Made by a program: the position numbers and the translations under genes
Assembly (NCBI GenBank): GCA_944372335.1
Contig: CALVYQ010000003.1
Coordinates: 68,093-132,092, forward strand
From: an uncultured Clostridia bacterium
GTDB lineage: Bacteria > Bacillota > Clostridia > Christensenellales > UBA1242
Direction of reading: 5' to 3'
DNA: 64,000 nucleotides
Part shown: positions 5,252 to 64,000 of the stretch, in pieces
How the letters are laid out: every line of letters begins with the position of its first letter
Numbering within the stretch: position 1 is the stretch's first letter
Notes under the pieces: model-generated
Told to the model about the DNA's origin: nothing
Seen by the model: the letters and a program-made list of their open reading frames with translations, nothing else
The model's database searches: none

Positions 5252-5772
5252 TGGTTATTTCTCCTTTTATCATAATATCCGACCGATTTAAGCCATAAAT
5301 CTTGTCTTGTGTAATAACTCATCCCATAAGAAAAAGGACTGTCAAAACGATTTTGGCTTTGAAAGTCTGGATTGTAGTTTAAATTATCAAAAACTATCTG
5401 CATAACCTGCATTTTCTTTTGCGGGTCTTTTATTTGTTTTAACTGGTCGATACATTGAAATGGTGTTATAAGTCTTGTATTTCTTCGCAAATTTTTCGTG
5501 ATTGCTGGAACATTATTAAACATGTCTTCAATAAGTTGTTTCATACCTTTAATTTCTCTGAACCTTTGTTTAAACTTACCGGAAATTACAATATCTCCAT
5601 TTGACATTCGGCCATTAAAAACTGCCTTTAAATATTCGGCAACTTTTCTCTCAACCCACTCAAAACTAAATACATTTTTCGTGCTATCTTTTTGAGTAAA
5701 TTGTGGAAACAAGCCTTTGAGTTCTTTGTTCATAAACAAATCTCTCATTCCAAACTTATCATTGTATTGCAT
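5239..5772 (-). CDS. Phage structural protein (unassigned)
   Basis: 177 aa ORF, overlapping start/stop with neighbours. Confidence 0.45.
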   Translation of the reverse strand: MQYNDKFGMRDLFMNKELKGLFPQFTQKDSTKNVFSFEWVERKVAEYLKAVFNGRMSNGDIVISGKFKQRFREIKGMKQLIEDMFNNVPAITKNLRRNTRLITPFQCIDQLKQIKDPQKKMQVMQIVFDNLNYNPDFQSQNRFDSPFSYGMSYYTRQDLWLKSVGYYDKRRNNQWRR

Positions 5773-21592: not shown

Positions 21593-21907
21593 CTACTCCT
21601 TTAAAAATTTTAACCCAGCACCTTGATGTTCACTAGATTTTAACTGTTTCCAAATATTCTCAATTCGATTTTCTACAAAGAAACATATATCTTTTGCAGT
21701 CATTGAACAGTCAATGCGTTCGTCTAATGTATAGGTTAAGTGCTTTCCTTTTGGACTTGTATAGATGTCTAAATTAAAAGTCACAAAATCTAATCGAGTT
21801 GCTTTATAGAATAAGAATATTTCTTCTTCGACTTTTCTTGTTTTGTTTTTTATTGTGCCAGAAATTTCATATCTGTCTTTGCAATCTATTTTAATATAAA
21901 GTTTCAT
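21593..21907 (-). CDS. Phage early hypothetical protein
   Basis: 104 aa ORF. Confidence 0.4.
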   Translation of the reverse strand: MKLYIKIDCKDRYEISGTIKNKTRKVEEEIFLFYKATRLDFVTFNLDIYTSPKGKHLTYTLDERIDCSMTAKDICFFVENRIENIWKQLKSSEHQGAGLKFLKE

Positions 21908-25309: not shown

Positions 25310-26033
25310 AAGGTATTGCCTCCTTATTCGCCGATTTTTTACCGTGATTAAATCTATCAAACAAACCTTGATAACAATTTGCTATTGAATAGTCAAGTAT
25401 ATCTAATGCTTCTTCCTTTGTTCGTGCATACTTACGCAGTTTTTGAATACAACTATCAAGAGTAGATTTAGTTCTTATAGCCTTATTCTTCCCCATAGCC
25501 TTTCTCATTTCTGCATAGTCTTTAAACTTATTACAAACTTCACTATCGCTAAAACTACCTTCAATGAGAGAGTAGAGTTCACTATCCGTAAGGATGGTGT
25601 TTTTTTCTTTATTTATTTCTTTTTTTAATATATCATTATCATTAACATATACATTAACATAAAGGTTATCGTTTGGCTCGTCTAGGTTATCTTCGGTTAT
25701 CTTTGGGTTATCTTCGGTTATGCTTTGATTATCTGTTTTTTGAGCATAATAAGGGTTACTTTGCCCCTTTTTAAAGTTAGGATTTCCACCTTTTTTGCCA
25801 TTTTCAACGCTTGCTGTATATTTTGCAATATTGTTTTCCATGTCACGAGAAAAACTAACCAGCATTGCCTTTGCAACTGGGCTTATATCCTCTGGAATAA
25901 CACCATTTACGCCATATCTCACAAGTGCCTTATAGGTCTCTAATTGATATTCTTCGGGCAAAGTTTCTATTGCCTCTGCCCAATTTTTAAATATCACAAA
26001 ACTATCTCTTATTATCCCCACTTTCCACCTCAT
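25299..26033 (-). CDS. Putative replisome organizer / replication initiator
   Basis: Lies immediately upstream of dnaB; contains direct DNA iterons (25663-25735); N-terminal FKNWAEAIETLPEE-type domain. Start is uncertain. Confidence 0.5.
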   Translation of the reverse strand: MRWKVGIIRDSFVIFKNWAEAIETLPEEYQLETYKALVRYGVNGVIPEDISPVAKAMLVSFSRDMENNIAKYTASVENGKKGGNPNFKKGQSNPYYAQKTDNQSITEDNPKITEDNLDEPNDNLYVNVYVNDNDILKKEINKEKNTILTDSELYSLIEGSFSDSEVCNKFKDYAEMRKAMGKNKAIRTKSTLDSCIQKLRKYARTKEEALDILDYSIANCYQGLFDRFNHGKKSANKEAIPYAN

Positions 26034-27073: not shown

Positions 27074-27958
27074 TTAATCCTTTAATTTAATTCTAACTTG
27101 TGCTTTAACTGGTGTTGTTTTGGTAAATTGTTTTGCTATTTCTGGCAATTCTTCTCTTAACCTTTTTTGGTCAAGACTATCTCTTGTTGTTGGTGCAATA
27201 TATGTGATTTTAAAATAGTCATTTTCAATAAATGGAAGTCCTGTCTCTTCAAATTTTTCTATCAAAAAATCTTTTAAACTTTCTTCCTGTTCTTCAAGTT
27301 GTTTTTTGCGTTCTGCAAGCGCTTTAAGTTCGCTCTGAACAGTTATCAATTTTTCACACGATGCTGTATCAATTTCAAATGTTTTTCTTTCGTAAAGCAT
27401 GCTGTTCCTTTCGCAGTCTAAAAGTCTTTCAATCTCTTCTCTCGGAATTGGTTTTAATTCAACTATCTTGCAAGTGTGGTCATCTGGAAAATGAAAGCAA
27501 ATGTATTTATCAAAGGTTTCATTCATGAGATAAGCATACAAACTTAATTGCCATGCCACCACCTCTCTATGAAGGCTAGAAGTGGTCTTAAAGTCACCAA
27601 TAAAGGTTTGTCCTTTAATTATTCCAGCAACATCGACAGTGCCCGCTATTTCGTCATTCCAGACCATAAATTCGCTTTTGCTAGGAAGAATATCCTCGCA
27701 CACACATTGCTCGTAAAATGTCTCAAATTCGCCCGTAAAACCGATTTGTTTATGGTTGATGTATTCTTCAAGTTCTTTGTGTACAACCTTGCCTCTTTCG
27801 GCTTTAAGCCTAAGAATTTCGCTATCAACATTTGAATAATCTGGTGATAGTCCATGCTTTTTTAAAAGTTGTGTCACAGAAACTAGATTTATCTCTTCGC
27901 CATTGTCCTTAATAAGCGTGTAGGAATGGCTGTTTTCATCAAAATTTAGCTTGTCCAT
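27074..27958 (-). CDS. PD-(D/E)XK (RecB/Cas4-like) exonuclease
   Basis: Motifs HKELE, TVDVAG, GDFKT and WQLSLYAY. Start set at ATG 27958 behind AAGGAGGGTGG. Confidence 0.7.
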   Translation of the reverse strand: MDKLNFDENSHSYTLIKDNGEEINLVSVTQLLKKHGLSPDYSNVDSEILRLKAERGKVVHKELEEYINHKQIGFTGEFETFYEQCVCEDILPSKSEFMVWNDEIAGTVDVAGIIKGQTFIGDFKTTSSLHREVVAWQLSLYAYLMNETFDKYICFHFPDDHTCKIVELKPIPREEIERLLDCERNSMLYERKTFEIDTASCEKLITVQSELKALAERKKQLEEQEESLKDFLIEKFEETGLPFIENDYFKITYIAPTTRDSLDQKRLREELPEIAKQFTKTTPVKAQVRIKLKD

Positions 27959-28682
27959 TGCCACCCTCCTTCTTCGCTTTTGCAAGGGCTTTTCGCTGTT
28001 TTTTAATTGTCTCTTCTGCTTGCTCGAACGATATGTCATCTATTGAAGGTGCTTTGTAGTATAGCGCCATACTTTCTAGCCTTTGCTCATCAAAACCAAG
28101 TTCATAAAGTTCTTTTATCTGCTCTTCGGTAATCTTCTTTATTGGTTTTAAATTAGAACCCACTTCAACTTCATCAATCTCAATTTGTTGAGAGAGTTCA
28201 TCTGCCTCACTATCGCTATAAATGCCAGCATAGGCAAGTTTGGATATCTTTAAAACAACCCTGTCAAAACATCTTTTAAAGGCCATGGCATATGGATATT
28301 CGTTCTTACAATTCTTGGAGTTAACCTCCCCTACCTCATATATTCCTTGCTCTGGGCAACTGTAAGTGAACACAAGGCTATTGCCAAATCCATTGCTATC
28401 ATACTTCACACATTCCGGCTTAAACTTATTTTCAGCTGGTGCCATGTCATTAAGTTTTAAGCAACCATTGTGGCTTATAATCAAGCCTGTATATGCCATT
28501 TTGCCGGTTTTCGTTTTATTCATTAAAATCCAAAAGTCTCCTTCTGAAATTTTACCTTCGTATTTTTTAATTATTTCAAGCGCTTGCTTTTTGCTTTCTG
28601 TATATTTTTCACTTTGCCAAACAGGAACTTCCACTCTTTGGCCATTCTCTATGATGGCTTCTTTATCTTTTTCGTTAAACAT
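27939..28682 (-). CDS. Putative single-strand annealing / recombination-associated protein (family unresolved)
   Basis: Sits upstream of the exonuclease, as in Exo/Bet-type modules. Start set at ATG 28682 behind GGAGGTGG. No motif could be named with certainty. Confidence 0.35.
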   Translation of the reverse strand: MFNEKDKEAIIENGQRVEVPVWQSEKYTESKKQALEIIKKYEGKISEGDFWILMNKTKTGKMAYTGLIISHNGCLKLNDMAPAENKFKPECVKYDSNGFGNSLVFTYSCPEQGIYEVGEVNSKNCKNEYPYAMAFKRCFDRVVLKISKLAYAGIYSDSEADELSQQIEIDEVEVGSNLKPIKKITEEQIKELYELGFDEQRLESMALYYKAPSIDDISFEQAEETIKKQRKALAKAKKEGGNGQAKF

Positions 28683-31020: not shown

Positions 31021-32202
31021 ATGGCAAGTTTTGAACAATTATACTACTGTAAAAACTGCAAAAAGAATGTCGCCGTGAACAACGGTAAGTGTAAAACTTG
31101 CGGTTCAACTCAACTTAATAAAACTTGGTCAACTAGATTTAGATATATCGAAGAAAATGGCGTAGAAAAACAAAAGCGCTTGTCCGGGTTCTCGACAAAG
31201 AAAGAAGCCCAAGATGCTTATCTTAAATTCATGGCCGGTGCTAAGAAATATGAAAAAACAGCAGATGTTTCAAAAAAATTAACTTTTAATGCCCTTTTTG
31301 AAGAATATAAGTTATATTTCCAAAAACACTCTAAAAAGAGTTCTTATCAGTCATTTTTGCAACGAACGAACGGACATATTTTAAATTACTTTAAAGACTA
31401 TAAAGTCAAAGATATAACTCCAAAACTAATACTTGAATGGCAGAACACTGTTGAAAAATATTCATATAATTATAAATTACATTTAAGAACAACTCTTTCT
31501 AGTTTATTGCGATATGCCGAAACATATTATGGTATCCCTAATCAACTTGTTAAAGTGGCATCTTTTAAAAAGACACCACAAAAATCTGAAATGCGAATTT
31601 GGACACCAGAACAATTTGAGTTAGCAATGAGCCACTTAAATAATTTTGAATATAGAGTTTTCTTTTCTGCGTTGTTTTATACTGGTGCTCGAAAAGGCGA
31701 GATTATGGCCACTAGTTGGGATGACTGGGATTTAGAAAATAATATTTTAACAATTAACAAAACAGTGACGAAAAAAATAGATGGCTATAAATATTGGATA
31801 GACACGCCTAAAAATGAAACATCAAATAGAAAAATTAAAATACCTAATCACCTTGCAGAGATGTTAAAAGAATTAAAGTTTAGTAGGCATGGTATATTAG
31901 GAAAATTCACTTTTGGCGTGGATGAGCCATTATCAGAAACAAGTATTTTAAGACACCTAGACAATGCAAGCAAAAGTGCAGGATTGCCACACATAAGGAT
32001 ACATGACTTAAGACATAGCCACGCCAGCCTACTTATAAGTCAAGGCGTCTCTATTGTTTCTATAGCCAAAAGGCTTGGACACAGCAATATAGAAAGAACT
32101 TTAAACACTTATGCTCATATGCTTCCGCACGAAGAAGATGCACTAATTGGAGTGCTTGAAAAACAGCATAATTTATTAAAAAATCCTAATAATTGTGCCT
32201 AA
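31021..32202 (+). CDS. int: Tyrosine integrase with N-terminal zinc ribbon
   Basis: 393 aa; CKNC-x14-CKTC; catalytic region TGARKGE, HDLRHSHASLL, LGHSNIERTLNTYAH. Confidence 0.95.
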   Translation: MASFEQLYYCKNCKKNVAVNNGKCKTCGSTQLNKTWSTRFRYIEENGVEKQKRLSGFSTKKEAQDAYLKFMAGAKKYEKTADVSKKLTFNALFEEYKLYFQKHSKKSSYQSFLQRTNGHILNYFKDYKVKDITPKLILEWQNTVEKYSYNYKLHLRTTLSSLLRYAETYYGIPNQLVKVASFKKTPQKSEMRIWTPEQFELAMSHLNNFEYRVFFSALFYTGARKGEIMATSWDDWDLENNILTINKTVTKKIDGYKYWIDTPKNETSNRKIKIPNHLAEMLKELKFSRHGILGKFTFGVDEPLSETSILRHLDNASKSAGLPHIRIHDLRHSHASLLISQGVSIVSIAKRLGHSNIERTLNTYAHMLPHEEDALIGVLEKQHNLLKNPNNCA

Positions 32203-32282: not shown

Positions 32283-32356
32283 TGGAGCGGATAATGGGAG
32301 TCGAACCCACCTCTCAAGCTTGGGAAGCTCGCATACTACCGATGTACTATATCCGC
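32283..32356 (-). tRNA. tRNA-Gly (anticodon CCC)
   Basis: 74-nt cloverleaf folded by hand: acceptor GCGGATA/TATCCGC, anticodon loop UUCCCAA, T-loop GGGTTCGACTCCC, discriminator U, encoded CCA. Confidence 0.85.
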
Positions 32357-44678: not shown

Positions 44679-44710
44679 AAAAAAAGATATTTTCAAAGCG
44701 AAAATATCTT
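44679..44710 (-). terminator. Intrinsic terminator after the Myb-like gene
   Basis: 11-bp stem AAGATATTTTC/GAAAATATCTT followed by TTTTTTT on the minus strand. Confidence 0.6.
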
Positions 44711-44722
44711 GGTATAATAATT

Positions 44723-45574: not shown

Positions 45575-45618
45575 TAAATAAAAAACTCTATAACAGACGA
45601 AAATCCGTCATTATAGAG
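45575..45618 (-). terminator. Strong intrinsic terminator at the downstream end of the array (minus-strand sense)
   Basis: CTCTATAA-T-GACG-loop-CGTC-TG-TTATAGAG (12 bp) followed by TTTTTTATTT. Confidence 0.7.
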
Positions 45619-45635
45619 TTCTTTATCGTTCCCCT

Positions 45636-46265
45636 ATTATACCATACCAAAGAAATAAAGGGAACTAAAATTTCTTGGAACTCTATATTACCTACAATTG
45701 GATTATACCATACCAAAGAAATAAAGGGAACTAAAATAAGTATGCGGCGTGCTTTTTTCTTAAATTAATTATACCATACCAAAGAAATAAAGGGAACTAA
45801 AATGTGTTGACACTACAAATGCAGGTTTCAGATATTATACCATACCAAAGAAATAAAGGGAACTAAAATATGTTAAAATATCTCCTTTTTTAAATTTTTA
45901 TTATACCATACCAAAGAAATAAAGGGAACTAAAATTTGAGTGAAGTGTTTGAAGCTCTCTTTTTAATTATACCATACCAAAGAAATAAAGGGAACTAAAA
46001 TATTCCCGCAAGGTTACCTTGTGGTGTGGTTATTATACCATACCAAAGAAATAAAGGGAACTAAAATGAGTATAATCTTCTTCTCGTTGGCTGTTAAATT
46101 ATACCATACCAAAGAAATAAAGGGAACTAAAATTAAAAAATTAAAAGAGTTTGATGAATAGGAATTATACCATACCAAAGAAATAAAGGGAACTAAAATT
46201 GTGTGCTTTGCTTTATCTTCTTCAATCTTATTATACCATACCAAAGGTAAATTGTGGCGAAAAAC
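45636..46265 (-). CRISPR. CRISPR array, type II-C-like repeat; 9 full repeats + 1 truncated, 9 spacers of 30 nt
   Basis: Exact 36-nt repeats start at 45636, 45702, 45768, 45834, 45900, 45966, 46032, 46098 and 46164. The unit at 46230 keeps only the first 17 nt. Minus-strand repeat: ATTTTAGTTCCCTTTATTTCTTTGGTATGGTATAAT. Confidence 0.9.
46230..46246 (-). promoter_or_regulatory. Repeat-embedded extended -10 promoter (TGGTATAAT); representative copy in the truncated first unit
   Basis: Every repeat ends (minus sense) in TTTGGTATGGTATAAT. The truncated unit retains exactly this part. Confidence 0.5.
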
Positions 46266-46278
46266 TCTTTTTATAACT

Positions 46279-46306
46279 AAAAATAAAAAAATACCCATAA
46301 GGATAT
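46279..46306 (-). terminator. Weak terminator after rplS
   Basis: ATATCC-TTAT-GGGTAT (one G-U) followed by TTTTTTTATTTTT. Confidence 0.45.
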
Positions 46307-46307
46307 T

Positions 46308-46658
46308 TTATTTATTGTCAGCTGATTTAACTTTTGCAGCCTTGCCCGTGAGATTTCTAACATAGTAAAGCTTTGCTCTCTTTGGCTTGCCCTTTCTAGT
46401 CACTTCGATGCTAGCAATTTTTGGTGAATGGATAGGATAGGTTTTCTCCACGCCAACGCCATAAGAAATTTTTCTTACAGTGAAGGTCTCTCTAATTCCA
46501 CCGTTCTTTCTGGCAATAACCACGCCTTCAAAGGCTTGAATTCTTTCCTTGTCGCCTTCCTTGATTTTGACATTGACCTTTACAGTGTCACCAATAGAAA
46601 ACTCAGGAACATTCTCTTTCATGTTTTCTCTTTCAATTTGGTCAATAATATTTGCCAT
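46308..46658 (-). CDS. rplS: 50S ribosomal protein L19
   Basis: 116 aa; typical L19 sequence ([35 protein letters not shown]...RRAKLYYVR-like). Confidence 0.95.
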
Positions 46659-46737: not shown

Positions 46738-46766
46738 ATTATAGCATAAAGATTTGTAAAAAACAA
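46738..46766 (-). promoter_or_regulatory. rplS promoter
   Basis: Minus strand: TTGTTT, 17 nt, TATAAT, with the last three spacer bases forming the extended -10 (TGCTATAAT). Confidence 0.5.
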
Positions 46767-52684: not shown

Positions 52685-52905
52685 TTAACTCCCTAGATAG
52701 ATGCATATATATGAGAGCTAAACTTGAATTTATGACTTCAAATATATATATTCCATATATTAGAAATAGGTTAAAAAATATAAAAAACTGTTTTTGTAGA
52801 GCTAATTTTCAAATTTTAACTAAAATAAATCTAAAAAATTAAAATTGTAGAGATGAATTTTGAAAATAATATGCTATAATCATTATGACAAAAGGAGAAA
52901 ATATT

Positions 52906-54585: not shown

Positions 54586-57500
54586 CTATTTAGTGTTCAT
54601 TTCCTCTCTCTTTTCCTTCTTTTTCTTGTTGTAGATTATAAGAATGATTAAAAGGATAATTAAGATGACAATTATCACAATTATAATATAGATGTACCAA
54701 TAACTTTGCTCATTTCTGTAAATTCTTGCATCATAGCCAATAACACCAAATAGTCCGCCATAGCTTGTTGGATTATAATATTTTGCAAGATAGATATCAG
54801 AAATTGTGTGCCCGTTGAAATTAAAAGTACCATTAAATGCGTGCTCTGTTGTTCCGATAGGCGTCCAGAATTTTTCAGAAAGTGAAATATCTGCCATAAC
54901 TCTGTAACTTGCAAGTTCATAGAAACGTCCGCTTTCACTGACAGAGCCACTGTTTATCTTTTCCATATAATAGGTCAAGTCTTCCACAGTGTAGATAAGA
55001 TATGGGTCATCACTTGCTCCTGTACCTTGCTCTTCAATATCTGTCATTTCGTGATACAATCTTTCAAACTCAATCTCTAGCCTTATCGTTCCGGCAAGTG
55101 ATTGTGTATCAATCTCCTCACGGGTGAAATAGAGCGTGTTTGTCTGAGCATCAAAATTATTTAGAACATTGATAAGCTCGCCATAGTAATTGATAATCTC
55201 AATATTGGTGATGTTATAGCGTGCATTTGTGATGATGTTGAGAGTTAAATCAGCACCCAAACTTCGCAAGACAACATCTGTTGCACTTCCCTCATAAGTC
55301 ACATAACCTGCAAGATTTGCATCGTTATTATCAGTCGCACCTTCAATTATATCCTTTTCAGCAAAACTTCTATAAATATAGATCGCCATGCTTTCACCGA
55401 TAAACTCAGGAATGATTGGCACAACTGATTCCGCCATATCGCCGGTTACTTCCATTGTGAAATATAGGAAATTTGTGTCGATGTTGTAAAGCTCTATATC
55501 GTCTAAATTCCAGCTAACACCAAAGCCATAATCCACTCTAACCATGAATGTTATATTATCGCCAACTCTTACATCATAAGTCGTGATATCTTTAACAAAT
55601 GTTCCGCTCTGTAGGTGTCCAAGCGTGACAGGTGTTTGAACGTTTGAGATGTTTCTGACAATCATATTTGCAATATAACCAGAAGTAGCATCATATTCAC
55701 TGAAACTCAAAGTCACTCTCTTTCCCTGAACAGCTAAGATGTAATTTGCATAAGTTTCAATCTTGTCTGTGAGCACTCTTGTGTTAAATCTTTCCTGCGT
55801 GGCAACTTTATACCAATAGTTAAAGTCATAACCTGAAGATTCAAGTGCTGTCAACGTGAATTCTTTTGTGGTGTCAACATAGCCTTCATTTACAAGAGCT
55901 TCAGCATACATATCCTCACTAGCTTGCCCTATCTCATACTCCATCTCTCCGCCGGTAAGAGTGACGTTGACTTTAGCAAAATAGTAAACTTCAATCGTCA
56001 TCTCAACAATTCTATCACGCTCATTTGTTGACCAAGGCACATTGTTTGTGAAACTTACAACATCGGCAAGATAGTTGTTGTTTGCATCTCTTTGCTTGAT
56101 TACAAACTTATAGAATTTATAACCGTCAATTTCTGGAGCAGTCAATGTTATATTTGTGTTAAAAGCAACTTCAATATATAGTGGCATTTCTTCATTGAAC
56201 CAAGAGTTGTTCATGTTTTCTCCTTCCACCAAATCCTCAGCAGTGATATTTGCTCTAATATTTGGCATGATTGAGAAGGTGATTTGCGTCTTTAAGAATG
56301 ACCAATATAGGTATAGATTTATTGTCATAACGCCATCGGTATCGATGTAAGCATTGTCACTAAGCTCATATCTTCCTGTATTTTCATTCAAGATATAGCC
56401 CGTTTCCATAAACATAGTTAATGCTTGGCCTGTTGAATTGATGTATTGCCTACCTTTACCGCCAGCATAAGTGAAGTAGCCCGCAAAGGTATAATCTTCT
56501 TTCGACTGAACGATGTTGAGAGTGCCGTTTGAATAACCAAGATTAGAGGTAATATTGTGGCTGTTGCTTGCACTTAAATTAAGTACCTCATGGAATCTCA
56601 CATTATCAATCACCGCAACAACAGGGTTATTAAGTGAAATATCATTTAGGACTACCCTATATGTCTGAGGTTCAAGATTGATGGAAATTTCCGTGCTATT
56701 TGAAAGAGCACTGACGTTAAAGTAAATTACGTAGTTATAGTTGTTTTCTGCAAAGTTAAGTTGATAACCTCTGACATCAGTTATATTCAACATTTCATCG
56801 TCATAACTTAGACTGATATTTTCAAGGTTAATCTCAAAGCCAAGTCTAATATACGCCACAATGCTGAAATAGGTATCTGTGTAGCCAACAACTTGGAGAG
56901 TTGATTGATTTGAACCATTGCCCCAAACCTTTTGACTCATCGCATCGTCTATCTCTAAGAAGAGATTTCCGCCTGAAACAATCGTTCCTAACTCGTTTTT
57001 GAAGTTGATATCGATTATATTCTTTTGAGGTAAGAAGTAAACATTTATATCAAGCTCATTTACGCTTCCAACGATATTGAAGAGTCGATAGATATCATAA
57101 AGCTGACCGTTTTCCTCATAGCTTCCATAATGTTGAATGGTAACTAGATTATTGTTGGTTGAAACGACTCTTGAAAGGCTATACCCGCCTCTTGTCACGC
57201 CAACCTTTAAGAATACTTCGCTGTTGGTGTTTGTTGTTAGAATAAAGTTTTGTCTGTTAACAACTCCATTGTAATCTTTATAATGATTAAGTGTGCCAGA
57301 GACATATCCATACTCATTGACATCTTGAACAACTCCATCTTCGTATCCAATCAAGGTGATATCTCCAACAGAGCTATCCTCTTCTATAAGTCCATCAAAA
57401 TCAAGATATGAATTGATGTTAAAATCTATAGAACTTGGAGCAAGTGCCACAAAGAATGGAACATAATTATTCATTGCACCAAAGCCTAAATTCAACATAT

Positions 57501-60500
57501 ATAACGTGTCAAGAGTGATTTCTATTACCTTTTCCGAACTCTGATTTCTATATGCATAGTCAAAGTCACCTCTGACAAGTTGAGCTTGACTGTATTCTGC
57601 ATTTAATATATAACCATAGCCCAAGAAAGTGTAGCCATCAGGAACGTGCAATTCGATAGTTTTGCTTGAACCATAATAAATATTTGACTGATATACTTCC
57701 GTTTCTTCTTCAAAGAAAGGTGCATAGATTAGCCTATATACTTCCTCTTCGAGAGAGCTATCACCATATTCTTGATTTAGAACATAATAACTATAAGCAT
57801 TGAGTGCCACTCTAAATTCTGCCTTTGAGAAGATAGCGTAAATTGTTTCGTCCATTGTGACGGTTATGTCAAATGGGCTTTCAGCACTGATAATTGCGCT
57901 TCCATCTCTCGACCAGCCAGCAAAGCTATAATCATCAAGCGTAAAGGAATAGGTCAAGGTGGCGGTGGAATTATAGTTCTTAATAGCACTTGTCTCGCCG
58001 TCAACCAATGCTGTAAACGAACTTAATATATCTTCATCATCAATAAGAACACCATTTTCGTCATATACAAGCACTCCTGTAGAAATCTCATAGGTTTGAT
58101 AACCTATCTCAACTGTCACAACACCATCTGCCAAGATATTTTCAATTGTAAATTGATAATAGCCAAAATATGCATTGCTGTCATCTTCGACAAGCGTATA
58201 GGCAACATTCTGTGCTTGTCCTTCGCTGTATGCAAAGATGATATTATTTACAAGATAGCCCTCTTTTAAGCTTAAATATACATTTAAATTGTCACCCGTT
58301 CTGACATAAGCTATGTTATCAACATTTGTTTGGTCATTTGTAATAAGTCTATTTAAAGCATCGGCATTATCAAAGGTGAATACAACTCTGTTTTCTCTTT
58401 CAGTGGTTAAGACTGTGATTAGAGTATCTTTTCTTATTCCACTTATTGTCAATAGAATATTTGAGCCTTCCATCACTTGTTCAATACCAATATCACTGTT
58501 ATTTGTTTCAACGTTTACAAACTCATAACCATCTTCGATTGTTATATTGATATCAAATGTAACATCAGAATCTACGCTGAAAGTGTTATTTGTAATTTCT
58601 ATTAAACTTCCACCAACGCTTGCTGTAAACGAGAAATGTTCGCCTTGAACTGTTACATCGTTTCTTTTTACAGCACTTGTTGCTGACATTTTAACATACG
58701 GTGGAGCAGGCATATTAAAGTTCACTATTGCTCCATTATCCATCTCTTCAAATTCAACGTTTTCAAATAGAATATCATCTTGTGTGTAAGAAATGATATC
58801 AACCTCATAACCTTCATTGACCTGCAATGTAAAGGAAAGTATCTCATCAAAATTTAATGCATCAAAGATATAAAGGTTGTTTTCTCTGTCATAACTTATA
58901 TCCACACTTGCACTTATTAGTGAAAGATTTTCATCAAGGGAGAGTGTTATATAGTTTTGCAAGATATTCCAATTAGCAGTTAGTGTTACGCCGTTTGGAT
59001 TTGTTAAAATTGTGTCACCTGTCACAACATTGCCTTCTTCGTCTGTCCAGCTAACAAACTCATAGCCTTCACGAATTGGAGTTTCTTCCCAACCTTCTGC
59101 GTCACCAAACGCACCGTTAAATGGAACAGAAATTGTCACCGTTCTACTGTCATAATTATAATCTAATATCACCTCAATATTGAGCTCTTCAAAGATTGGA
59201 GAATAGGTAAGCTCATAGCCATTTTCTGTTTGAACAGAATTTGAAAGCAATAAAGTTGCTGCAAAGTCGGAAGCGTCAACAGTAACTTCATCATTGAAGA
59301 GATATCCAACTACGCTGTAACCTGCTCTAGACAAATCAGGCAGAGTTGTGAGATCGGCATCAAGCAGATTTTGACAAGATGCAGTATATACATATCTATT
59401 GTCAGTCAAAGGTATGAACCTATCATCACTGAATGTCACTTCACCGTTATAACCTGTAAGATCCAAAACGATGGAAACGTTGTCATAACTAAATCTAAAC
59501 GCCAAAGCATTTTCGCTTGTAACAGAATTAATTATATAAGTTGTGACATTGCCCTCAGTGACAGCACTATCAAAGGTGAATTCCTCTCCTGTAAGAGAAT
59601 CAAACACCCCGCTAAGTCTTACATACGCACTAAGCGTAATGATTATCTCAACGCTGTCACCATGATTTACGCTTGTTTGATAGGTGGAAGAAATCATCTC
59701 CTCGTCGTTGACAGCAATATTTGCATATTCCGCATAATTCCCGCCTAAATTTTCACCATTTGCATCTTGCATATAGACTGTGAAGTAATAAGAATTTCCT
59801 ATCCAATTTGCAGTAAAGGTTACACGAGCTGTTTCTTCACTTTCATAGATATTGAAGTAATCAACATCATTTGACATCAATTCTGTTAAGAAAAGAATTG
59901 TTGAGCTGTTGTTTCCAACTGAGACTCTATAAACTCCGGCATTTGAAGTGTAATTTAAGCCAAGTCTTGAAAGAACATCGCTTAAATATGTCCACTCTGG
60001 AGTGTTCTCAGGCGCACTTAGATTGATTGTCCAACCGTTAAAAGTGAAGCCTTCTTTTCCTGTAAGCATGGTTGGAAAGGCGTTTTTATTACCATCAGTA
60101 GCATTTGAAGAGAGATAGTTTGTGGCAATAAATGGATAATTTACACTTTCTAGCAATTTTGTTTCGTCAATATTTGCTGAAATTGTTTCGCCCTCTTCAG
60201 CCTGATAGTCAAAATTGATATATAGAAGGATAGCTTTAATTTCACCATTTAGATAAGATGATATAGTGTAGTTTTCAGCATCATCACCTATTATATTAAA
60301 GTTAATCTGAATGCCTGAACCAGGAAGTGTTTGAGCATAGAACGCACTTTCAACATCGACGATATCACCACTTATAAGATTGCCGATATTGAACAGAAGT
60401 TCGTTGCTTTCATTTCGTATAACAACACTGTTCGTGCCATCATAGAGTTTTGTGAAGATGTCTTTAAGAAGAGCATCGTCCTTTTGCTCCACAACTAGAG

Positions 60501-63500
60501 TGCGTGGAGTGACATATAAGCGAGCCGGCATCACATCTGTATTATCAACTGAGCTATTATAATAATAACCAATTTCAAAATCACGTGCGTTGAGTGTTGC
60601 AGAAAGTTCATAGCCTTCTTCATTTACCTTTAAGTTGTTTGAAGTAGAATATTCACCATTCACAACACCTATATCGACACTGATATTACTCTTGTCATAA
60701 TATGTTAAATCTAAGTCGCCATAATTTATCTCGTAATAATATGTAGGCTGTTGACCATACGTCACTGAAACGCTATCAATATAAAGTCCAACTTTCGCCT
60801 TTGTTATCTCACCGTGAATTTCACCTGTAACAACATAGTTAACATTATCAGAAAGCACTGCTTGCACTGTGTAGTTGTTGCCAACGTATCTTGCAATTGT
60901 GATACCGTCATACATTGTCAGAGTTAAGGATAGAGTTTCGCCGGAAATAATACCATTCAAAATCTCGCTCGCATCTTCATAGAAAAGTACGGCATTATGA
61001 TTGTCAAATTCTTTGGAAACTCCGGCCACATTGTAAGTGAGTGCCTTAGGTAAAATTCTGACAACATAAGCAGAGAGTGTGCTTGGCTTACCAAAGATAA
61101 CATCAAAATTTGTGCTTGTTATGTTATCTGCATATACTGAATAATCACCAGCATTTTTCACCATCGTATTTACTGTAAATCTTAAATCTGCATCAAGCGT
61201 TTCGTCAAAGCTTGAGCTCTTGACATATACATTTTCCTCTTCGTTATATGAGTATAGATTCAAAATATATTCATGAGTGATAGATGATGTTGTGCTTGAC
61301 AAAGTTATTTTATAGTTTCTAGCTTGCTCGTCAACTTCAAAAGTGAAGTTTGAATACTGCAATCCGTCATAGGTAAGTTCCATATTTAGATAGGAATTGT
61401 CATCACCATCAACAACATCTGAAGAGCTAATGAGAAGATAGAATCTCTCGTTTGATGGCGTTATTCTATATGCACCATTAGCACTCAAATCCTGAACGCT
61501 TTCGACAACATAATTTTCATCGACAACGGAAGCGGAAAGAATCTTATAGTAGCCAACCGCACTTCCTTCTCCTCTTGTGAAGGTAATTTCAATAGTATCT
61601 CCAAAAATTGTGTTGTAATCACGAACAAATTGGTTCATCAAGCTCTCTTCTGAGCCATAGCTTGTTCGATATGCACCGTCAGTTGTGAATGTAAAATTAA
61701 GATTAAACGGAATAACAGAGAAGTTTAATTCTGTTGGAGTGATATTATAATTGTTGCTTTCAATAACTAAGGATACGCTGTAATCTCCCATAGTTAAATA
61801 GCCACTTGCTGAATAACTACCATTGTTTATGGTTGCACTTACACTATACTCAGTTGTTGAAACAATATTTTCTCCAGAAGTCACAGTGTAACTAAAGCCA
61901 GAATTCTCTTGCAAAGAGCCATAGCTAAAGGTGTTGTTTGTAAGAGCTATCACTGCATCAGCTTTAACAATTTCGCCTAGTGCTATGTTGTTGTCATTCA
62001 TAAATCTATAGTTTCTTGCTGACGTTCCATTTAGATAAAGAGTGACATTGATATCAGTTCCAACCTGACTCGTTGCAAAGATAGCGGTAATTGAAACTTC
62101 GTCATTGACAACACCATCATTTACACGCTCGTCAAAGTCGATATTCTCCATTCTGTTTGTGCCATCATAAGTCTTTATTAAGTTTAAGTTTGCTGGATTA
62201 ACTTCAATAGCATCAACCGTTAAGTAGTAGTTTTCATAGAAGGCAAAATTGGTTGCTCCCTCAGCTTCAAGAGTTAAATAGAGTCTATAATTACCTGCAT
62301 CTTTAAAAGTATGAACATTACCACTTAGATATATGTTAATAGTTGTGATATTTCCACTAAAGGTCTCATCACCTGTGCCTGTCTTTCTGTATAGATTAAA
62401 TGTTAGATTGATTGGAGAAGCCTGTTCGTTTTCAATTACCAAATTGTTGTCTTCTACTCTCAATAAGTAATCATAACCATTATAATCAAGATTTAGAAGG
62501 CTGGTATCTTCAAATTTAAGGAAGATTATCTCCTCGGTTGGCACAATTTGGAAGGAATTTTGTGCAGAAAGCGTTATTATAATGCTTCCATTAACAAAAC
62601 TATTTGTGCCGTTTAAAAGAAGATTATATTGCCCTTCCGCACCAAGCTCACCCTGCGTTAAGCCTTCAGGAATATATGATAAGGTCATAGCATCACCAGT
62701 CACCGCATAAGTCTGTATATCAGAATATGTGGAAACTAGGTCAACTGTTGTGATTGTTATATAGTTTTCTGGCAAAGTCAAAGCAAATTCATAAGGAGCA
62801 ATCTCTACGGTATCACTTGTAATATTTGTCATATTAAAGTCAGCAAAGGAAGAGCTTACAACTGTGACGCTGTAGATTCCTTGATAGAAGAAGCCAAGTC
62901 TGTTAGCATCTGCTCCCTCTAAATCTAGGCTTAGCGTGTAAGTTGAGATGAAGAAAATGTCTGATAAATCTGTGACCCCATCAGTATCCATAACGGTAAG
63001 GCTAAGGTTGTCTTCCAAATTACTCCTGCTTAAATCACCGTAGGTATATGCACTTTCTCCCTCTTCATAAAGAGCGGAGATGTTGAGAACAGCGTCTCTT
63101 TTTAAAATTGTACCTCTTGCGTTTACAGACGAAAGAGTGTAGTTGTTTTCGTTGTAGCCTTCTGTTGCAGATAGCACAAGTGTGACGCTAATATTCTCGC
63201 CTGCATGATATGTTGAGAAATTGGCATTGATATAAACCCCTTCGTAATTTTCGCCTACTATATTTCCCTCTAGGTCAACACGCAAACTTGCATTGCCATC
63301 ATATACCTTATTGAACGAAAATTCTGAAACATCTATAGGCATTGGGAAAATTTCAAAAGTATATGCTTCATCAAAAATGATATTGTTATAGTAGTTTGCT
63401 ATTTCCGCTCCTTCTTTTACTTCCACTCTTAGCTCGTATGTCGCACTATCAAACGCTGTTTCATAGTTAAGTGAATTATATAATAATAGAGTGATATTAT

Positions 63501-64000
63501 CATAATTTAACAAACTTTCAATCAATGCAATATTATCGACAATTTGAGCTCCAGCGTTTACATCGTAAGCAATGAGCGCTCTAGTTGAAACTTGACTATC
63601 TCCGCTATAGACAACAACATTGCCGTCATTAATTTGCAAGCTGTAACCAGAGGTGTTGTAGTTGACCATAATAGTTTCTAAGCCTTCCCACGAAAGTCTC
63701 AAAGTGTCAGATTTGATAATTTCAAAATCGCCAACAGGAGTGTCTAAGTTTTGTAGAGAATTATCATACAAAGTTACATCTCCATAGACAATTTGATAGT
63801 TGGAAGCAAGATTAGAGCAAACAAATCCATTCTCTTCGTTTAAATAGAGATTGTAGTTTCCTATATCTTCTCCAGGGGTTCTGTTTAAATTGAATTGTAG
63901 AGTCTCACCGTTGATGCTTAAATTATATTCCAAAGTTGGGTCAGCCGTGTTAAATTTCTTAGATAGATAGATTTCTTCATTTTCAAGATTGATTATTGCT
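54586..64000 (-). CDS. Giant repeat-rich surface protein with C-terminal TM anchor; N-terminus beyond the window (more than 3137 aa)
   Basis: The frame stays open upstream of the track's TTG start to base 64000. It has many YDG(T/N)-type repeats, Listeria-Bacteroides-type repeats (GYxFxGW), a GLUG-like YGGLFG region, and ends IIIVIIVILIILLIILIIYNKKKK. Confidence 0.8.
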   Translation of the reverse strand, partial: AIINLENEEIYLSKKFNTADPTLEYNLSINGETLQFNLNRTPGEDIGNYNLYLNEENGFVCSNLASNYQIVYGDVTLYDNSLQNLDTPVGDFEIIKSDTLRLSWEGLETIMVNYNTSGYSLQINDGNVVVYSGDSQVSTRALIAYDVNAGAQIVDNIALIESLLNYDNITLLLYNSLNYETAFDSATYELRVEVKEGAEIANYYNNIIFDEAYTFEIFPMPIDVSEFSFNKVYDGNASLRVDLEGNIVGENYEGVYINANFSTYHAGENISVTLVLSATEGYNENNYTLSSVNARGTILKRDAVLNISALYEEGESAYTYGDLSRSNLEDNLSLTVMDTDGVTDLSDIFFISTYTLSLDLEGADANRLGFFYQGIYSVTVVSSSFADFNMTNITSDTVEIAPYEFALTLPENYITITTVDLVSTYSDIQTYAVTGDAMTLSYIPEGLTQGELGAEGQYNLLLNGTNSFVNGSIIITLSAQNSFQIVPTEEIIFLKFEDTSLLNLDYNGYDYLLRVEDNNLVIENEQASPINLTFNLYRKTGTGDETFSGNITTINIYLSGNVHTFKDAGNYRLYLTLEAEGATNFAFYENYYLTVDAIEVNPANLNLIKTYDGTNRMENIDFDERVNDGVVNDEVSITAIFATSQVGTDINVTLYLNGTSARNYRFMNDNNIALGEIVKADAVIALTNNTFSYGSLQENSGFSYTVTSGENIVSTTEYSVSATINNGSYSASGYLTMGDYSVSLVIESNNYNITPTELNFSVIPFNLNFTFTTDGAYRTSYGSEESLMNQFVRDYNTIFGDTIEITFTRGEGSAVGYYKILSASVVDENYVVESVQDLSANGAYRITPSNERFYLLISSSDVVDGDDNSYLNMELTYDGLQYSNFTFEVDEQARNYKITLSSTTSSITHEYILNLYSYNEEENVYVKSSSFDETLDADLRFTVNTMVKNAGDYSVYADNITSTNFDVIFGKPSTLSAYVVRILPKALTYNVAGVSKEFDNHNAVLFYEDASEILNGIISGETLSLTLTMYDGITIARYVGNNYTVQAVLSDNVNYVVTGEIHGEITKAKVGLYIDSVSVTYGQQPTYYYEINYGDLDLTYYDKSNISVDIGVVNGEYSTSNNLKVNEEGYELSATLNARDFEIGYYYNSSVDNTDVMPARLYVTPRTLVVEQKDDALLKDIFTKLYDGTNSVVIRNESNELLFNIGNLISGDIVDVESAFYAQTLPGSGIQINFNIIGDDAENYTISSYLNGEIKAILLYINFDYQAEEGETISANIDETKLLESVNYPFIATNYLSSNATDGNKNAFPTMLTGKEGFTFNGWTINLSAPENTPEWTYLSDVLSRLGLNYTSNAGVYRVSVGNNSSTILFLTELMSNDVDYFNIYESEETARVTFTANWIGNSYYFTVYMQDANGENLGGNYAEYANIAVNDEEMISSTYQTSVNHGDSVEIIITLSAYVRLSGVFDSLTGEEFTFDSAVTEGNVTTYIINSVTSENALAFRFSYDNVSIVLDLTGYNGEVTFSDDRFIPLTDNRYVYTASCQNLLDADLTTLPDLSRAGYSVVGYLFNDEVTVDASDFAATLLLSNSVQTENGYELTYSPIFEELNIEVILDYNYDSRTVTISVPFNGAFGDAEGWEETPIREGYEFVSWTDEEGNVVTGDTILTNPNGVTLTANWNILQNYITLSLDENLSLISASVDISYDRENNLYIFDALNFDEILSFTLQVNEGYEVDIISYTQDDILFENVEFEEMDNGAIVNFNMPAPPYVKMSATSAVKRNDVTVQGEHFSFTASVGGSLIEITNNTFSVDSDVTFDINITIEDGYEFVNVETNNSDIGIEQVMEGSNILLTISGIRKDTLITVLTTERENRVVFTFDNADALNRLITNDQTNVDNIAYVRTGDNLNVYLSLKEGYLVNNIIFAYSEGQAQNVAYTLVEDDSNAYFGYYQFTIENILADGVVTVEIGYQTYEISTGVLVYDENGVLIDDEDILSSFTALVDGETSAIKNYNSTATLTYSFTLDDYSFAGWSRDGSAIISAESPFDITVTMDETIYAIFSKAEFRVALNAYSYYVLNQEYGDSSLEEEVYRLIYAPFFEEETEVYQSNIYYGSSKTIELHVPDGYTFLGYGYILNAEYSQAQLVRGDFDYAYRNQSSEKVIEITLDTLYMLNLGFGAMNNYVPFFVALAPSSIDFNINSYLDFDGLIEEDSSVGDITLIGYEDGVVQDVNEYGYVSGTLNHYKDYNGVVNRQNFILTTNTNSEVFLKVGVTRGGYSLSRVVSTNNNLVTIQHYGSYEENGQLYDIYRLFNIVGSVNELDINVYFLPQKNIIDINFKNELGTIVSGGNLFLEIDDAMSQKVWGNGSNQSTLQVVGYTDTYFSIVAYIRLGFEINLENISLSYDDEMLNITDVRGYQLNFAENNYNYVIYFNVSALSNSTEISINLEPQTYRVVLNDISLNNPVVAVIDNVRFHEVLNLSASNSHNITSNLGYSNGTLNIVQSKEDYTFAGYFTYAGGKGRQYINSTGQALTMFMETGYILNENTGRYELSDNAYIDTDGVMTINLYLYWSFLKTQITFSIMPNIRANITAEDLVEGENMNNSWFNEEMPLYIEVAFNTNITLTAPEIDGYKFYKFVIKQRDANNNYLADVVSFTNNVPWSTNERDRIVEMTIEVYYFAKVNVTLTGGEMEYEIGQASEDMYAEALVNEGYVDTTKEFTLTALESSGYDFNYWYKVATQERFNTRVLTDKIETYANYILAVQGKRVTLSFSEYDATSGYIANMIVRNISNVQTPVTLGHLQSGTFVKDITTYDVRVGDNITFMVRVDYGFGVSWNLDDIELYNIDTNFLYFTMEVTGDMAESVVPIIPEFIGESMAIYIYRSFAEKDIIEGATDNNDANLAGYVTYEGSATDVVLRSLGADLTLNIITNARYNITNIEIINYYGELINVLNNFDAQTNTLYFTREEIDTQSLAGTIRLEIEFERLYHEMTDIEEQGTGASDDPYLIYTVEDLTYYMEKINSGSVSESGRFYELASYRVMADISLSEKFWTPIGTTEHAFNGTFNFNGHTISDIYLAKYYNPTSYGGLFGVIGYDARIYRNEQSYWYIYIIIVIIVILIILLIILIIYNKKKKEKREEMNTK

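What the first reader, a model, noticed from the sequence alone, without database searches (positions are those of the whole stretch)
45636..46265. Orphan type II-C-like CRISPR array with a promoter in every repeat and no cas gene in 64 kb
There are nine exact 36-nt repeats, plus a tenth unit that keeps only the first 17 nt, separating nine unique spacers of exactly 30 nt. On the minus strand the repeat reads ATTTTAGTTCCCTTTATTTCTTTGGTATGGTATAAT. This closely resembles the Campylobacter jejuni type II-C repeat as I recall it (GTTTTAGTCCCTTTTTAAATTTCTTTATGGTAAAAT). Like Neisseria and Campylobacter II-C repeats, it ends in an extended -10 box (TGGTATAAT), so each unit could launch its own crRNA a few nt into the next spacer. 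The truncated unit (46230-46265) retains exactly this promoter half, which fits it being the first promoter of a minus-strand array. A strong terminator closes the other end. No cas9/cas1/cas2 and no large unexplained ORF lies within 45 kb on one side or 18 kb on the other; the neighbours are core genes (rplS, addAB). Three readings are possible: the array is serviced in trans by a distant or mobile Cas9, it is a very recent relic of a deleted cas operon (nine perfect repeats argue against long decay), or it is read by something not yet described.
Basis: partly seen in the sequence, partly recalled or inferred. Interest (0 to 1): 0.7.

Follow-up and report, generated by a model that had tools for sequence, protein, structure and literature searches.

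The report
Detached type II-C CRISPR array
This is a genuine type II-C (Cas9-type) CRISPR array that sits alone between two housekeeping genes, is rebuilt with new phage-derived spacers from strain to strain, and so must depend on Cas9, Cas1, Cas2 and tracrRNA encoded elsewhere; this arrangement is already known from other bacteria.

Summary
There are nine identical 36-nt repeats, nine 30-nt spacers and a tenth unit that keeps only the promoter half. Every unit carries a perfect extended -10 box (TGGTATAAT), and a strong terminator follows the array. The type II-C assignment is now tested rather than recalled. A Clostridia MAG (L011) has a 35/36-identical repeat beside cas9-cas1-cas2 and a tracrRNA, and ten further cas9 loci carry the same repeat and tracrRNA family. 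The 64-kb window holds no cas gene, cas remnant or tracrRNA. Metagenome contigs of the same species (97-99% identical flanks) carry the array at the same rplS-addB site but with entirely different spacers. Three strains share only the spacer next to the truncated unit, so spacers enter at the addB side, as in known II-C arrays. Two sister-strain spacers match this window's prophage 30/30. The array therefore looks like working immune memory served in trans, like Enterococcus faecalis CRISPR2. I could not find the species' own cas9 locus: none of the Cas9 loci I retrieved belongs to this species. Whether this strain still has Cas9 stays open. Verdict: ordinary kind, well preserved; moderate-low interest.

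The parts
45636..46246 (-). CRISPR array: nine full 36-nt repeats (ATTTTAGTTCCCTTTATTTCTTTGGTATGGTATAAT on the minus strand), nine 30-nt spacers and one truncated unit
   Evidence: Exact parse; repeat finders. The same array lies at the same site in L001-L010.
46230..46246 (-). Truncated oldest ('extra') unit. It keeps only CTTTGGTATGGTATAAT, the extended -10 promoter that would drive the oldest spacer. The tracrRNA-pairing 5' half is lost.
   Evidence: Predicted pairing to the family tracrRNA drops from -40.8 to -24.2 kcal/mol. Degenerate first units in L018, L021, L023 and L029 likewise keep the 3' half. Known behaviour per PMC12080349.
46200..46229 (-). Oldest spacer (AAGATTGAAGAAGATAAAGCAAAGCACACA)
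   Evidence: In sister strains the spacer at this position is the only one shared between different strains (L002, L005, L010).
45672..45701 (-). Newest spacer (CCAATTGTAGGTAATATAGAGTTCCAAGAA), next to the leader-side repeat
   Evidence: Polarity inferred; II-C arrays acquire at the last repeat (PMC12080349).
45636..45644 (-). Example of the repeat-embedded extended -10 box TGGTATAAT. The same box sits at the 3' end of all ten units: 45636, 45702, 45768, 45834, 45900, 45966, 46032, 46098, 46164, 46230 (+8 each).
   Evidence: The same motif type lies upstream of rplS (46738-46746) and of the HTH gene (52872-52880).
45618..45635 (-). Leader-proximal motif AGGGGAACGATAAAGAAC directly after the newest-side repeat; probable leader-anchoring sequence for spacer integration
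   Evidence: The related motif WG(R)nGRAC follows the last repeat in all cas-linked loci of the family (L011, L018, L021, L023, L026, L029, L030). Its function is inferred.
45580..45620 (-). Intrinsic terminator (AACTCTATAATGACGG-ATTTT-CGTCTGTTATAGAGTT + T6) closing the array. It is flanked by an A-tract, so it is probably bidirectional.
   Evidence: -24.3 kcal/mol, z -5.3. Equivalent hairpin plus T-run lies between cas2 and the array in L011, L018, L026, L029 and L030.
46285..46309 (-). rplS terminator hairpin plus T-run just upstream of the array; it insulates the array from read-through
   Evidence: Terminators upstream of II-C arrays are described in PMC12080349.
24324..24353 (+). Protospacer in the resident prophage (DnaB-like helicase gene), matched 30/30 by the oldest spacer of sister strain L007; 3' flank AGGTTTAACC
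21825..21854 (+). Protospacer in the resident prophage, matched 30/30 by spacer 5 of sister strain L010; 3' flank GTGCCAGAAA

Best explanation
This is a bona fide type II-C CRISPR array, read on the minus strand, that has become physically separated from its cas9-cas1-cas2-tracrRNA module. Each repeat ends in an extended -10 promoter (TGGTATAAT). Transcription would therefore start a few nucleotides into the following spacer and run into the next repeat, whose first ~24 nt pair with a tracrRNA. Each resulting crRNA:tracrRNA pair would guide Cas9. The oldest unit has lost its tracrRNA-pairing half but kept its promoter. It can still launch the oldest crRNA without producing a spacer-less 'extraneous' crRNA. 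New spacers enter at the opposite, addB-side end, next to a conserved leader motif and a terminator. Cas9, Cas1, Cas2 and tracrRNA are supplied in trans from a locus outside this 64-kb window, possibly an accessory locus present in only some strains. Shown here: the anatomy, family membership, absence of cas and tracrRNA locally, strain-level spacer turnover with polarity, and targeting of the resident prophage by sister strains. Inferred: promoter activity, integration at the leader motif, and the existence and location of the trans-acting cas module.
For: 1. Family. A 35/36-identical repeat lies next to cas2-cas1-cas9 (Pfam HNH_4, RuvC_III, Cas9_a, Cas1, Cas2) and a promoter-equipped tracrRNA in L011. 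The same repeat and tracrRNA family occurs at cas9 loci L018, L020-L024 and L026-L030.
2. tracrRNA compatibility. The window repeat pairs with the L011 tracrRNA as well as L011's own repeat does (-40.8 vs -41.1 kcal/mol).
3. Turnover. Contigs with 97.2-98.7% identical flanks carry 3 to 18 spacers at the same site and share none with the window.
4. Polarity. L002, L005 and L010 share only the spacer next to the truncated unit.
5. Targets. Spacers of L007 and L010 match the window's prophage 30/30, and the prophage is confirmed.
6. Repeat integrity. All 9 repeats are identical, whereas cas1/cas2-less relatives L029 and L023 show many variant repeats.
7. Leader. The leader motif and terminator are the same as in cas-linked loci.
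8. Published II-C architecture: promoters in repeats, acquisition at the last repeat, decayed first repeat, upstream terminator (PMC12080349, PMC5965381).
9. Precedent for trans service of an orphan type II array: PMC4894674, PMC4580645.
Against: The species' own cas9/tracrRNA locus was not found. There is no cas gene, remnant or tracrRNA in the window or in ten syntenic contigs. Every Cas9 locus I retrieved for which I computed tetranucleotide composition differs clearly from this genome (r 0.79-0.92 against 0.95-0.985 within the window); L020-L022 were not put through that test, but at 51-52% G+C they cannot be this 34% G+C species. No Cas9 between 53% and 94% identity to the best-matching (L011) Cas9 exists among 5.8 billion proteins, although this species is well sampled there (RplS on 41 contigs). 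No listed Cas9 cluster lies on a 200,598-bp contig, the longest contig recorded as carrying this window's RplS, HolB and ATPase proteins and presumably the window's own contig. No transcription data exist for the promoters.
Confidence: 0.68

Rival explanations
1. In this strain, and perhaps in most strains, the array is an orphan relic. The cas9-cas1-cas2-tracrRNA module is accessory and has been lost. The array is still transcribed from its own promoters but confers no immunity. Spacer diversity comes from past acquisition in cas-positive lineages and from recombination. This is the situation of most multidrug-resistant E. faecalis carrying CRISPR2.
For: No cognate Cas9 was found for this species despite deep sampling. 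This strain is lysogenised by a phage that sister strains target, and it has no spacer against that phage. E. faecalis shows that an orphan type II array can stay intact and variable species-wide without cas (PMC4580645, PMC4894674).
Against: All nine repeats are identical and the leader motif is intact, whereas cas1/cas2-less relatives show decayed repeats. Complete spacer replacement at ~98% flank identity implies recent adaptation somewhere in the species. No cas pseudogene lies at the site in any strain, so any loss did not happen here.
Confidence: 0.22
2. The array is served by a mobile or foreign cas module: a plasmid-, phage- or ICE-borne Cas9 system, or one acquired transiently from a co-resident species such as the L011 lineage, whose repeat and tracrRNA fit it perfectly.
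For: The only cas-linked array with the same repeat core is in a ~50% G+C organism. Its tracrRNA gives the best predicted pairing. No native candidate was found.
Against: No repeat, anti-repeat or clade Cas9 was found in IMG/VR contigs. Neither the repeat nor a close Cas9 is in PLSDB plasmids (best Cas9 38.7%). The L011 and L014 cas loci sit in ordinary chromosomal context at the host's own G+C.
Confidence: 0.07
3. The array is read by a locally encoded, undescribed effector, for example the conserved 241-aa protein downstream or the 795-aa protein beyond addA.
For: Both proteins lack confident family assignments and are conserved next to the array in all strains.
Against: The 241-aa protein is a small helical protein; by eye its N-terminus looks Myb/SANT-like. 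The 795-aa protein shows only AT-hooks and membrane-like segments. Neither has a nuclease or defence hit. The repeat, leader and terminator are those of canonical Cas9 loci, so no new reader needs to be invoked.
Confidence: 0.03

Closest known systems
Type II-C CRISPR arrays with repeat-embedded promoters (Neisseria meningitidis, Campylobacter jejuni)
   Same: 36-nt repeat starting (G/A)TTTTAG and ending in an extended -10 box. 30-nt spacers. crRNAs predicted to start inside spacers. Acquisition at the last transcribed repeat. Degenerate first ('extra') repeat. Terminator upstream of the array (PMC5965381, PMC12080349). The gapped alignment to the C. jejuni repeat has 29 of 39 identical columns.
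   Different: In those systems the array lies directly beside cas9-cas1-cas2 and the tracrRNA. Here none of these lies within 45 kb on one side or 18 kb on the other. Promoter activity is experimentally shown there and only inferred here.
Uncultured Clostridia type II-C loci of the same repeat family (L011 = CASFAV010000003.1; also L018, L021, L023, L026, L028-L030)
   Same: The repeat is 35/36 identical to L011's. The family shares ...TTGGTATGGTATAAT ends, 30-nt spacers, a leader motif WG(R)nGRAC, a terminator after the last repeat, and a truncated first unit that keeps the promoter half.
   Different: Those arrays are convergent with cas2 and have a conserved tracrRNA upstream of cas9. The window array has a housekeeping gene where cas2 would be, and its repeat starts with A instead of G.
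Enterococcus faecalis orphan CRISPR2 (type II-A)
   Same: A type II array without cas genes at a fixed chromosomal site in all strains of a species. Spacer content varies by strain. It is functional only with Cas9 and tracrRNA from an unlinked, accessory locus whose repeats match (PMC4580645, PMC4894674).
   Different: CRISPR2 is type II-A, is transcribed from a leader promoter and acquires spacers at the opposite end relative to transcription. Its partner locus (CRISPR1-cas) is known, whereas here the partner has not been located.
Orphan I-F arrays of E. coli carrying anti-cas spacers
   Same: An array kept after loss of the cas genes.
   Different: No spacer here, or in sister strains, matches cas genes of the family. 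Different CRISPR type.

Membership tests
CRISPR array (any type) | Regularly spaced identical direct repeats separated by unique spacers of uniform length | tested here: met
   Nine identical 36-nt repeats, nine unique 30-nt spacers, period 66.
CRISPR array (any type) | Spacers derive from mobile elements and vary between strains | tested here: met
   56 distinct spacers across about seven strains at one site. Two match the resident prophage 30/30. None of the window's own nine found a target.
Type II-C CRISPR-Cas | Repeat family associated with a cas9-cas1-cas2 operon lacking csn2 and cas4 | tested here: met
   A 35/36-identical repeat lies next to cas9-cas1-cas2 only in L011. The same architecture is seen in L014, L018, L021, L026-L028 and L030.
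Type II-C CRISPR-Cas | cas9, cas1 and cas2 present at the locus | tested here: not met
   No cas genes or remnants in the 64-kb window or in ten syntenic contigs. The array is a member of the repeat family, but the locus is not a complete II-C system.
Type II-C CRISPR-Cas | tracrRNA with an anti-repeat complementary to the repeat | tested here: not met
   A covariance model of the family tracrRNA finds only weak antisense-repeat hits (at most 30.5 bits) in the window and L001-L010. The ungapped scan is also negative. The repeat is nonetheless fully compatible with the L011 tracrRNA.
Type II-C CRISPR-Cas | Promoter within each repeat driving individual crRNAs | tested here: inconclusive
   A perfect TGGTATAAT sits at the 3' end of all ten units and is conserved across the family, including in degenerate first units. 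No transcript data are available.
Type II-C CRISPR-Cas | Spacer acquisition at the last transcribed repeat; oldest ('extra') repeat degenerate | tested here: met
   The only spacer shared between strains is next to the truncated unit, and variable spacers lie towards the addB side. The truncated unit lacks its 5' 19 nt.
Orphan array served in trans (E. faecalis CRISPR2-like) | A cognate cas locus with matching repeats elsewhere in the same genome or species | not testable with these tools
   Only 64 kb of the genome is available. The Cas9 loci I retrieved are from other organisms. Context look-ups and collection scans were exhausted.

The most novel reading that the evidence does not exclude
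The species has no cas9-cas1-cas2-tracrRNA of its own. Its well-kept, fast-turning-over II-C array, fixed between rplS and addB, is renewed and used through a cas module that is only transiently present. That module could be mobile, or borrowed from a co-resident Clostridia lineage whose repeat (35/36) and tracrRNA fit it exactly. The immune memory would then be a core-genome feature and the machinery a shared, itinerant one.
Probability: 0.1. Interest if true: 0.7.

Novelty: new member of a known kind. Interest (0 to 1): 0.33.

Why it matters
For annotation, this is a real, probably functional CRISPR array and should be typed II-C even though no cas gene is nearby. Its orientation, leader end and oldest end are now defined. 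For biology, it adds a type II-C counterpart to E. faecalis CRISPR2: an array fixed in the core genome of an uncultured gut-type Clostridia species while the cas module lies elsewhere or is accessory. The strain-specific spacer sets can be used for strain typing and for linking phages to this uncultured host. One such phage is the prophage in this window. The repeat and tracrRNA family defined here belongs to a compact Cas9 clade (1,083-1,136 aa) with a very conserved tracrRNA. I found no paper in the searchable text that mentions this family. It could interest Cas9 tool developers, although that is incidental to the finding.

Tried and rejected
1. Rfam, at gathering and at permissive thresholds: no CRISPR or tracrRNA family hit.
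2. JGI metagenome scan for the repeat: only a single chance-like 25-nt match (L013, same sequence as L012).
3. IMG/VR scans for the repeat, for a generalised repeat/anti-repeat pattern and for two window spacers: nothing.
4. All 56 spacers against GenBank phages: only a 23-nt chance hit.
5. A related phage contig (L025) found through the prophage helicase: only the homologous site of one protospacer, with mismatches. It was too little to derive a PAM; two protospacer flanks are not enough.
6. Hunt for the species' Cas9. Two protein searches, composition filtering and ten of the twelve context look-ups reached Cas9 loci. All of these loci come from other organisms: by tetranucleotide test for those tested, and by 51-52% G+C for L020-L022.
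7. Cluster membership look-ups gave no names or accessions.
8. PLSDB: no repeat match and no close Cas9.
9. IMG/VR by Cas9 profile: only 28-35% relatives.
10. Anti-cas spacer idea: no hits.
11. Local undescribed effector: the neighbours are non-nuclease proteins.
12. A cis-encoded tracr-like role for the leader motif: rejected, because the motif also occurs in loci that have a normal tracrRNA, and the hairpin that follows it is not conserved in sequence.

Full report
**What is there.** Window 45636-46246 contains nine identical 36-nt repeats. On the + strand the repeat reads ATTATACCATACCAAAGAAATAAAGGGAACTAAAAT. On the minus strand it reads ATTTTAGTTCCCTTTATTTCTTTGGTATGGTATAAT. The repeats are spaced every 66 nt and separated by nine unique 30-nt spacers. 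A tenth unit at 46230-46246 keeps only CTTTGGTATGGTATAAT on the minus strand. The repeat occurs nowhere else in the 64 kb on either strand. Each of the ten units ends in a perfect extended -10 box, TGGTATAAT. The window holds 19 such boxes against 5.0 +/- 2.3 expected. Ten are in the array, and others sit where real promoters are expected, for example upstream of rplS and of an HTH gene. On the minus strand the array follows the rplS terminator. It is followed by AGGGGAACGATAAAGAAC and a strong hairpin plus T-run (-24.3 kcal/mol, z = -5.3).

**Surroundings.** The window comes from a 34% G+C organism. Its closest named AddA relatives, at only about 42% identity, are uncultured Clostridia such as Candidatus Caccovivens. 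The array's neighbours are as follows:
- rplS (46308-46658);
- an MBL-fold protein, a methyltransferase, PSP1, holB, a P-type ATPase, an HTH protein and BacA;
- a giant repeat protein on one side;
- a 241-aa helical protein, addB, addA and a 795-aa AT-hook/membrane-like protein on the other side.

None of these hits a Cas or defence family apart from the HTH regulator's generic matches and a below-cutoff Cas4-nuclease-domain match at the C-terminus of AddB, which reflects AddB's own nuclease domain. tblastn with three sets of family Cas9, Cas1 and Cas2 finds no remnant in the window or in ten syntenic contigs. A prophage occupies about 3.7-32.3 kb next to a tRNA gene.

**Which CRISPR type: tested, not recalled.** A scan of one genome per GTDB species for a 24-nt core of the repeat found one real locus, L011 (CASFAV010000003.1, an uncultured Eubacteriales MAG; the locus is 47% G+C and the DNA flanking its cas operon about 50%). 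L011 has eight repeats GTTTTAGTTCCCTTTATTTCTTTGGTATGGTATAAT, which is 35/36 identical to the window repeat. These repeats are convergent with cas2, cas1 and a 1,112-aa cas9 (Pfam HNH_4, RuvC_III, Cas9 alpha-helical lobe, Cas1, Cas2). Immediately upstream of cas9, behind a TTGACA-17-TATACT promoter, lies a tracrRNA. Its anti-repeat TTTATACCATACCAAAGAATTAAAGGTTACTAAAAT is followed by AAGGGATTTTTCCCGCAAAGCTCTGTCCCTG...CAGGGACATCTTT.

Cas9 relatives at 41-53% identity were examined at loci L018, L020-L024 and L026-L030, which range from 30% to 52% G+C. These loci share the following features:
- the same 36-nt repeat family, ending ...TTGGTATGGTATAAT (L030 is more diverged);
- 30-nt spacers;
- a highly conserved tracrRNA upstream of cas9;
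- an array convergent with cas2;
- a degenerate first unit that keeps the TATAAT-bearing half.

The operons contain only cas9, cas1 and cas2, which is the type II-C gene set. It is a more distant relative, with 29 of 39 identical columns in a gapped alignment.

**No tracrRNA locally.** A covariance model built from six family tracrRNAs scores only 22-30 bits in the window and L001-L010. All of those hits are the antisense strand of the array's own repeats, and no full-length hit appears. The window repeat is nevertheless a perfect substrate for the family. Its predicted duplex with the L011 tracrRNA is -40.8 kcal/mol, against -41.1 for L011's own repeat and -30 to -34 for other family tracrRNAs. 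The A at repeat position 1 would pair with the U that ends the anti-repeat.

**The array is alive in the population.** Looking up the exact RplS protein returned ten metagenome contigs with the same gene order, rplS - array - 239/241-aa gene - addB - addA.
- L001, L004 and L009 are the same strain as the window (100% identical flanks).
- L002, L003, L005, L006, L007, L008 and L010 are 97.2-98.7% identical in the flanks.
- The arrays of these strains have 3 to 18 spacers with the same perfect repeat, and they share no spacer with the window. In total there are 56 distinct spacers.
- L002, L005 and L010 share exactly one spacer, the one next to the truncated unit.

The rplS side is therefore the old end and the addB side is where spacers enter. 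This is the published polarity of type II-C arrays, which acquire at the last transcribed repeat and carry promoters in the repeats (PMC12080349).

Two sister-strain spacers match the prophage in this window 30/30. L007 spacer 1 matches 24324-24353, inside the phage DnaB-like helicase gene. L010 spacer 5 matches 21825-21854. The memory is thus directed at phages of this very species. For contrast, two family loci that have lost cas1/cas2 show many mutated repeats: L029 has cas9 only, and in L023 cas1 is cut to 53 aa. The window array has nine identical repeats out of nine.

**Anatomy in the light of known II-C biology.** Feussner et al. (PMC12080349) report three features of II-C arrays. The first, oldest repeat is the 'extra' one and is mutated in 60% of systems. 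Those mutations fall mostly in the first 15 nt, the part that pairs with the tracrRNA. Terminators upstream insulate the array. All three features are present here.
- The first unit has lost its 5' 19 nt, and predicted tracrRNA pairing falls to -24.2 kcal/mol.
- That unit keeps the promoter needed for the oldest spacer.
- The rplS terminator lies directly upstream.

At the other end, the sequence after the last repeat begins with a motif shared by all cas-linked loci: AGGGGAAC here, and TGAAGGGAC, AGAAGAGAAC, AGAGGGAC, AGAGAAC, AGGAAC and TGGAAC elsewhere. An A-rich stretch and a hairpin terminator follow. In cas-linked loci this element separates the array from the convergent cas2. I read it as a leader-anchoring motif plus a bidirectional terminator. 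That reading is inference.

**Where is Cas9?** I could not find it.
- The window, the syntenic contigs, IMG/VR and PLSDB hold no cognate system.
- Two searches of 5.8 billion proteins show no Cas9 between 53% and 94% identity to the L011 enzyme.
- Every Cas9 locus I retrieved for which I computed tetranucleotide composition has flanks that correlate only 0.79-0.92 with this genome. Pieces of this genome correlate 0.95-0.985 with each other. L020-L022 were not put through that test, but at 51-52% G+C they are not this 34% G+C species.
- None of the listed Cas9 clusters lies on a contig of 200,598 bp, the longest contig recorded as carrying the window's RplS, HolB and ATPase proteins and presumably the window's own contig.

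These negatives are limited.

**Conclusion and weights.**
- Most likely (about 0.68): the array is an ordinary, functional type II-C array served in trans by a cas9-cas1-cas2-tracrRNA locus elsewhere in the genome or in part of the population. E. faecalis CRISPR2 works this way: it needs CRISPR1 Cas9 and tracrRNA (PMC4894674) and varies between strains while lacking cas genes (PMC4580645).
- About 0.22: this particular strain has lost the module and the array is an intact relic.
- About 0.07: the machinery is mobile or foreign.
- About 0.03: an undescribed local reader.

The finding is real and cleanly type II-C, but its kind is known, so I rate it a new member of a known kind with moderate-low interest. 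The point worth following up is whether any genome of this species has the machinery at all.

Noticed in passing
window 3700-32360: Prophage integrated next to a tRNA gene (32286-32356). It carries an integrase (31021-32202), a DnaB-like helicase (23912-25360), an exonuclease (27074-28039), a terminase (12602-14068) and a portal (6163-7764). Spacers of two sister strains match it perfectly, but no spacer of this strain does.
   Followed up: partly
window 45618-45635; L011 626-645; L018, L021, L023, L026, L029, L030 leader sides: All loci of this repeat family start their leader with WG(R)nGRAC. This is a partial inverted copy of repeat nt 7-12 (GTTCCC; GTTCTC paired with GAGAAC in L023). An A-rich tract and a terminator follow. 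It may be a type II-C leader-anchoring motif. Each instance is only weakly above shuffles, and I found no description of it in the papers read.
   Followed up: partly
L029 8246-12380; L023 10001-14420: Two relatives have cas9 and tracrRNA but no functional cas1/cas2. Their arrays carry many mutated repeats. These look like natural examples of interference-only II-C loci in decay.
   Followed up: partly
L011 5300-5400 (minus strand); L018 9720-9810; L020-L029 upstream of cas9: A very conserved ~95-nt tracrRNA with its own sigma-70-type promoter lies directly upstream of cas9. It is conserved across Cas9 proteins that are only 46-53% identical, and Rfam does not cover it. In L011 the ORF finder's GTG start for cas9 overlaps the tracrRNA; the real start is the ATG at 5285.
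   Followed up: partly
window 54586-63933 (minus strand, runs off the window): Part of a giant gene. It encodes about 6,300 aa in the syntenic contigs L001-L003, with faint Flg_new repeat hits, and is probably a surface protein.
   Followed up: no
L006 10399-11228: One strain has an extra DUF1835/DUF3658 gene inserted between rplS and the array. Its degenerate first unit is also different (..GCTATGCTATAAT).
   Followed up: no
window 44710-44718 (+): A perfect TGGTATAAT lies on the + strand in the addB/241-aa intergenic region, pointing antisense into the 241-aa gene and towards the array. The bidirectional terminator at 45580-45620 would stop such a transcript before it reaches the array.
   Followed up: no
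L003 10593-10900; L009 452-517: Assembly artefacts inside arrays: a run of N, duplicated spacers in L003, and an array collapsed to one spacer in the Logan contig L009 although its flanks are identical to the window. Spacer counts from short-read assemblies should be treated as minimum values.
   Followed up: no
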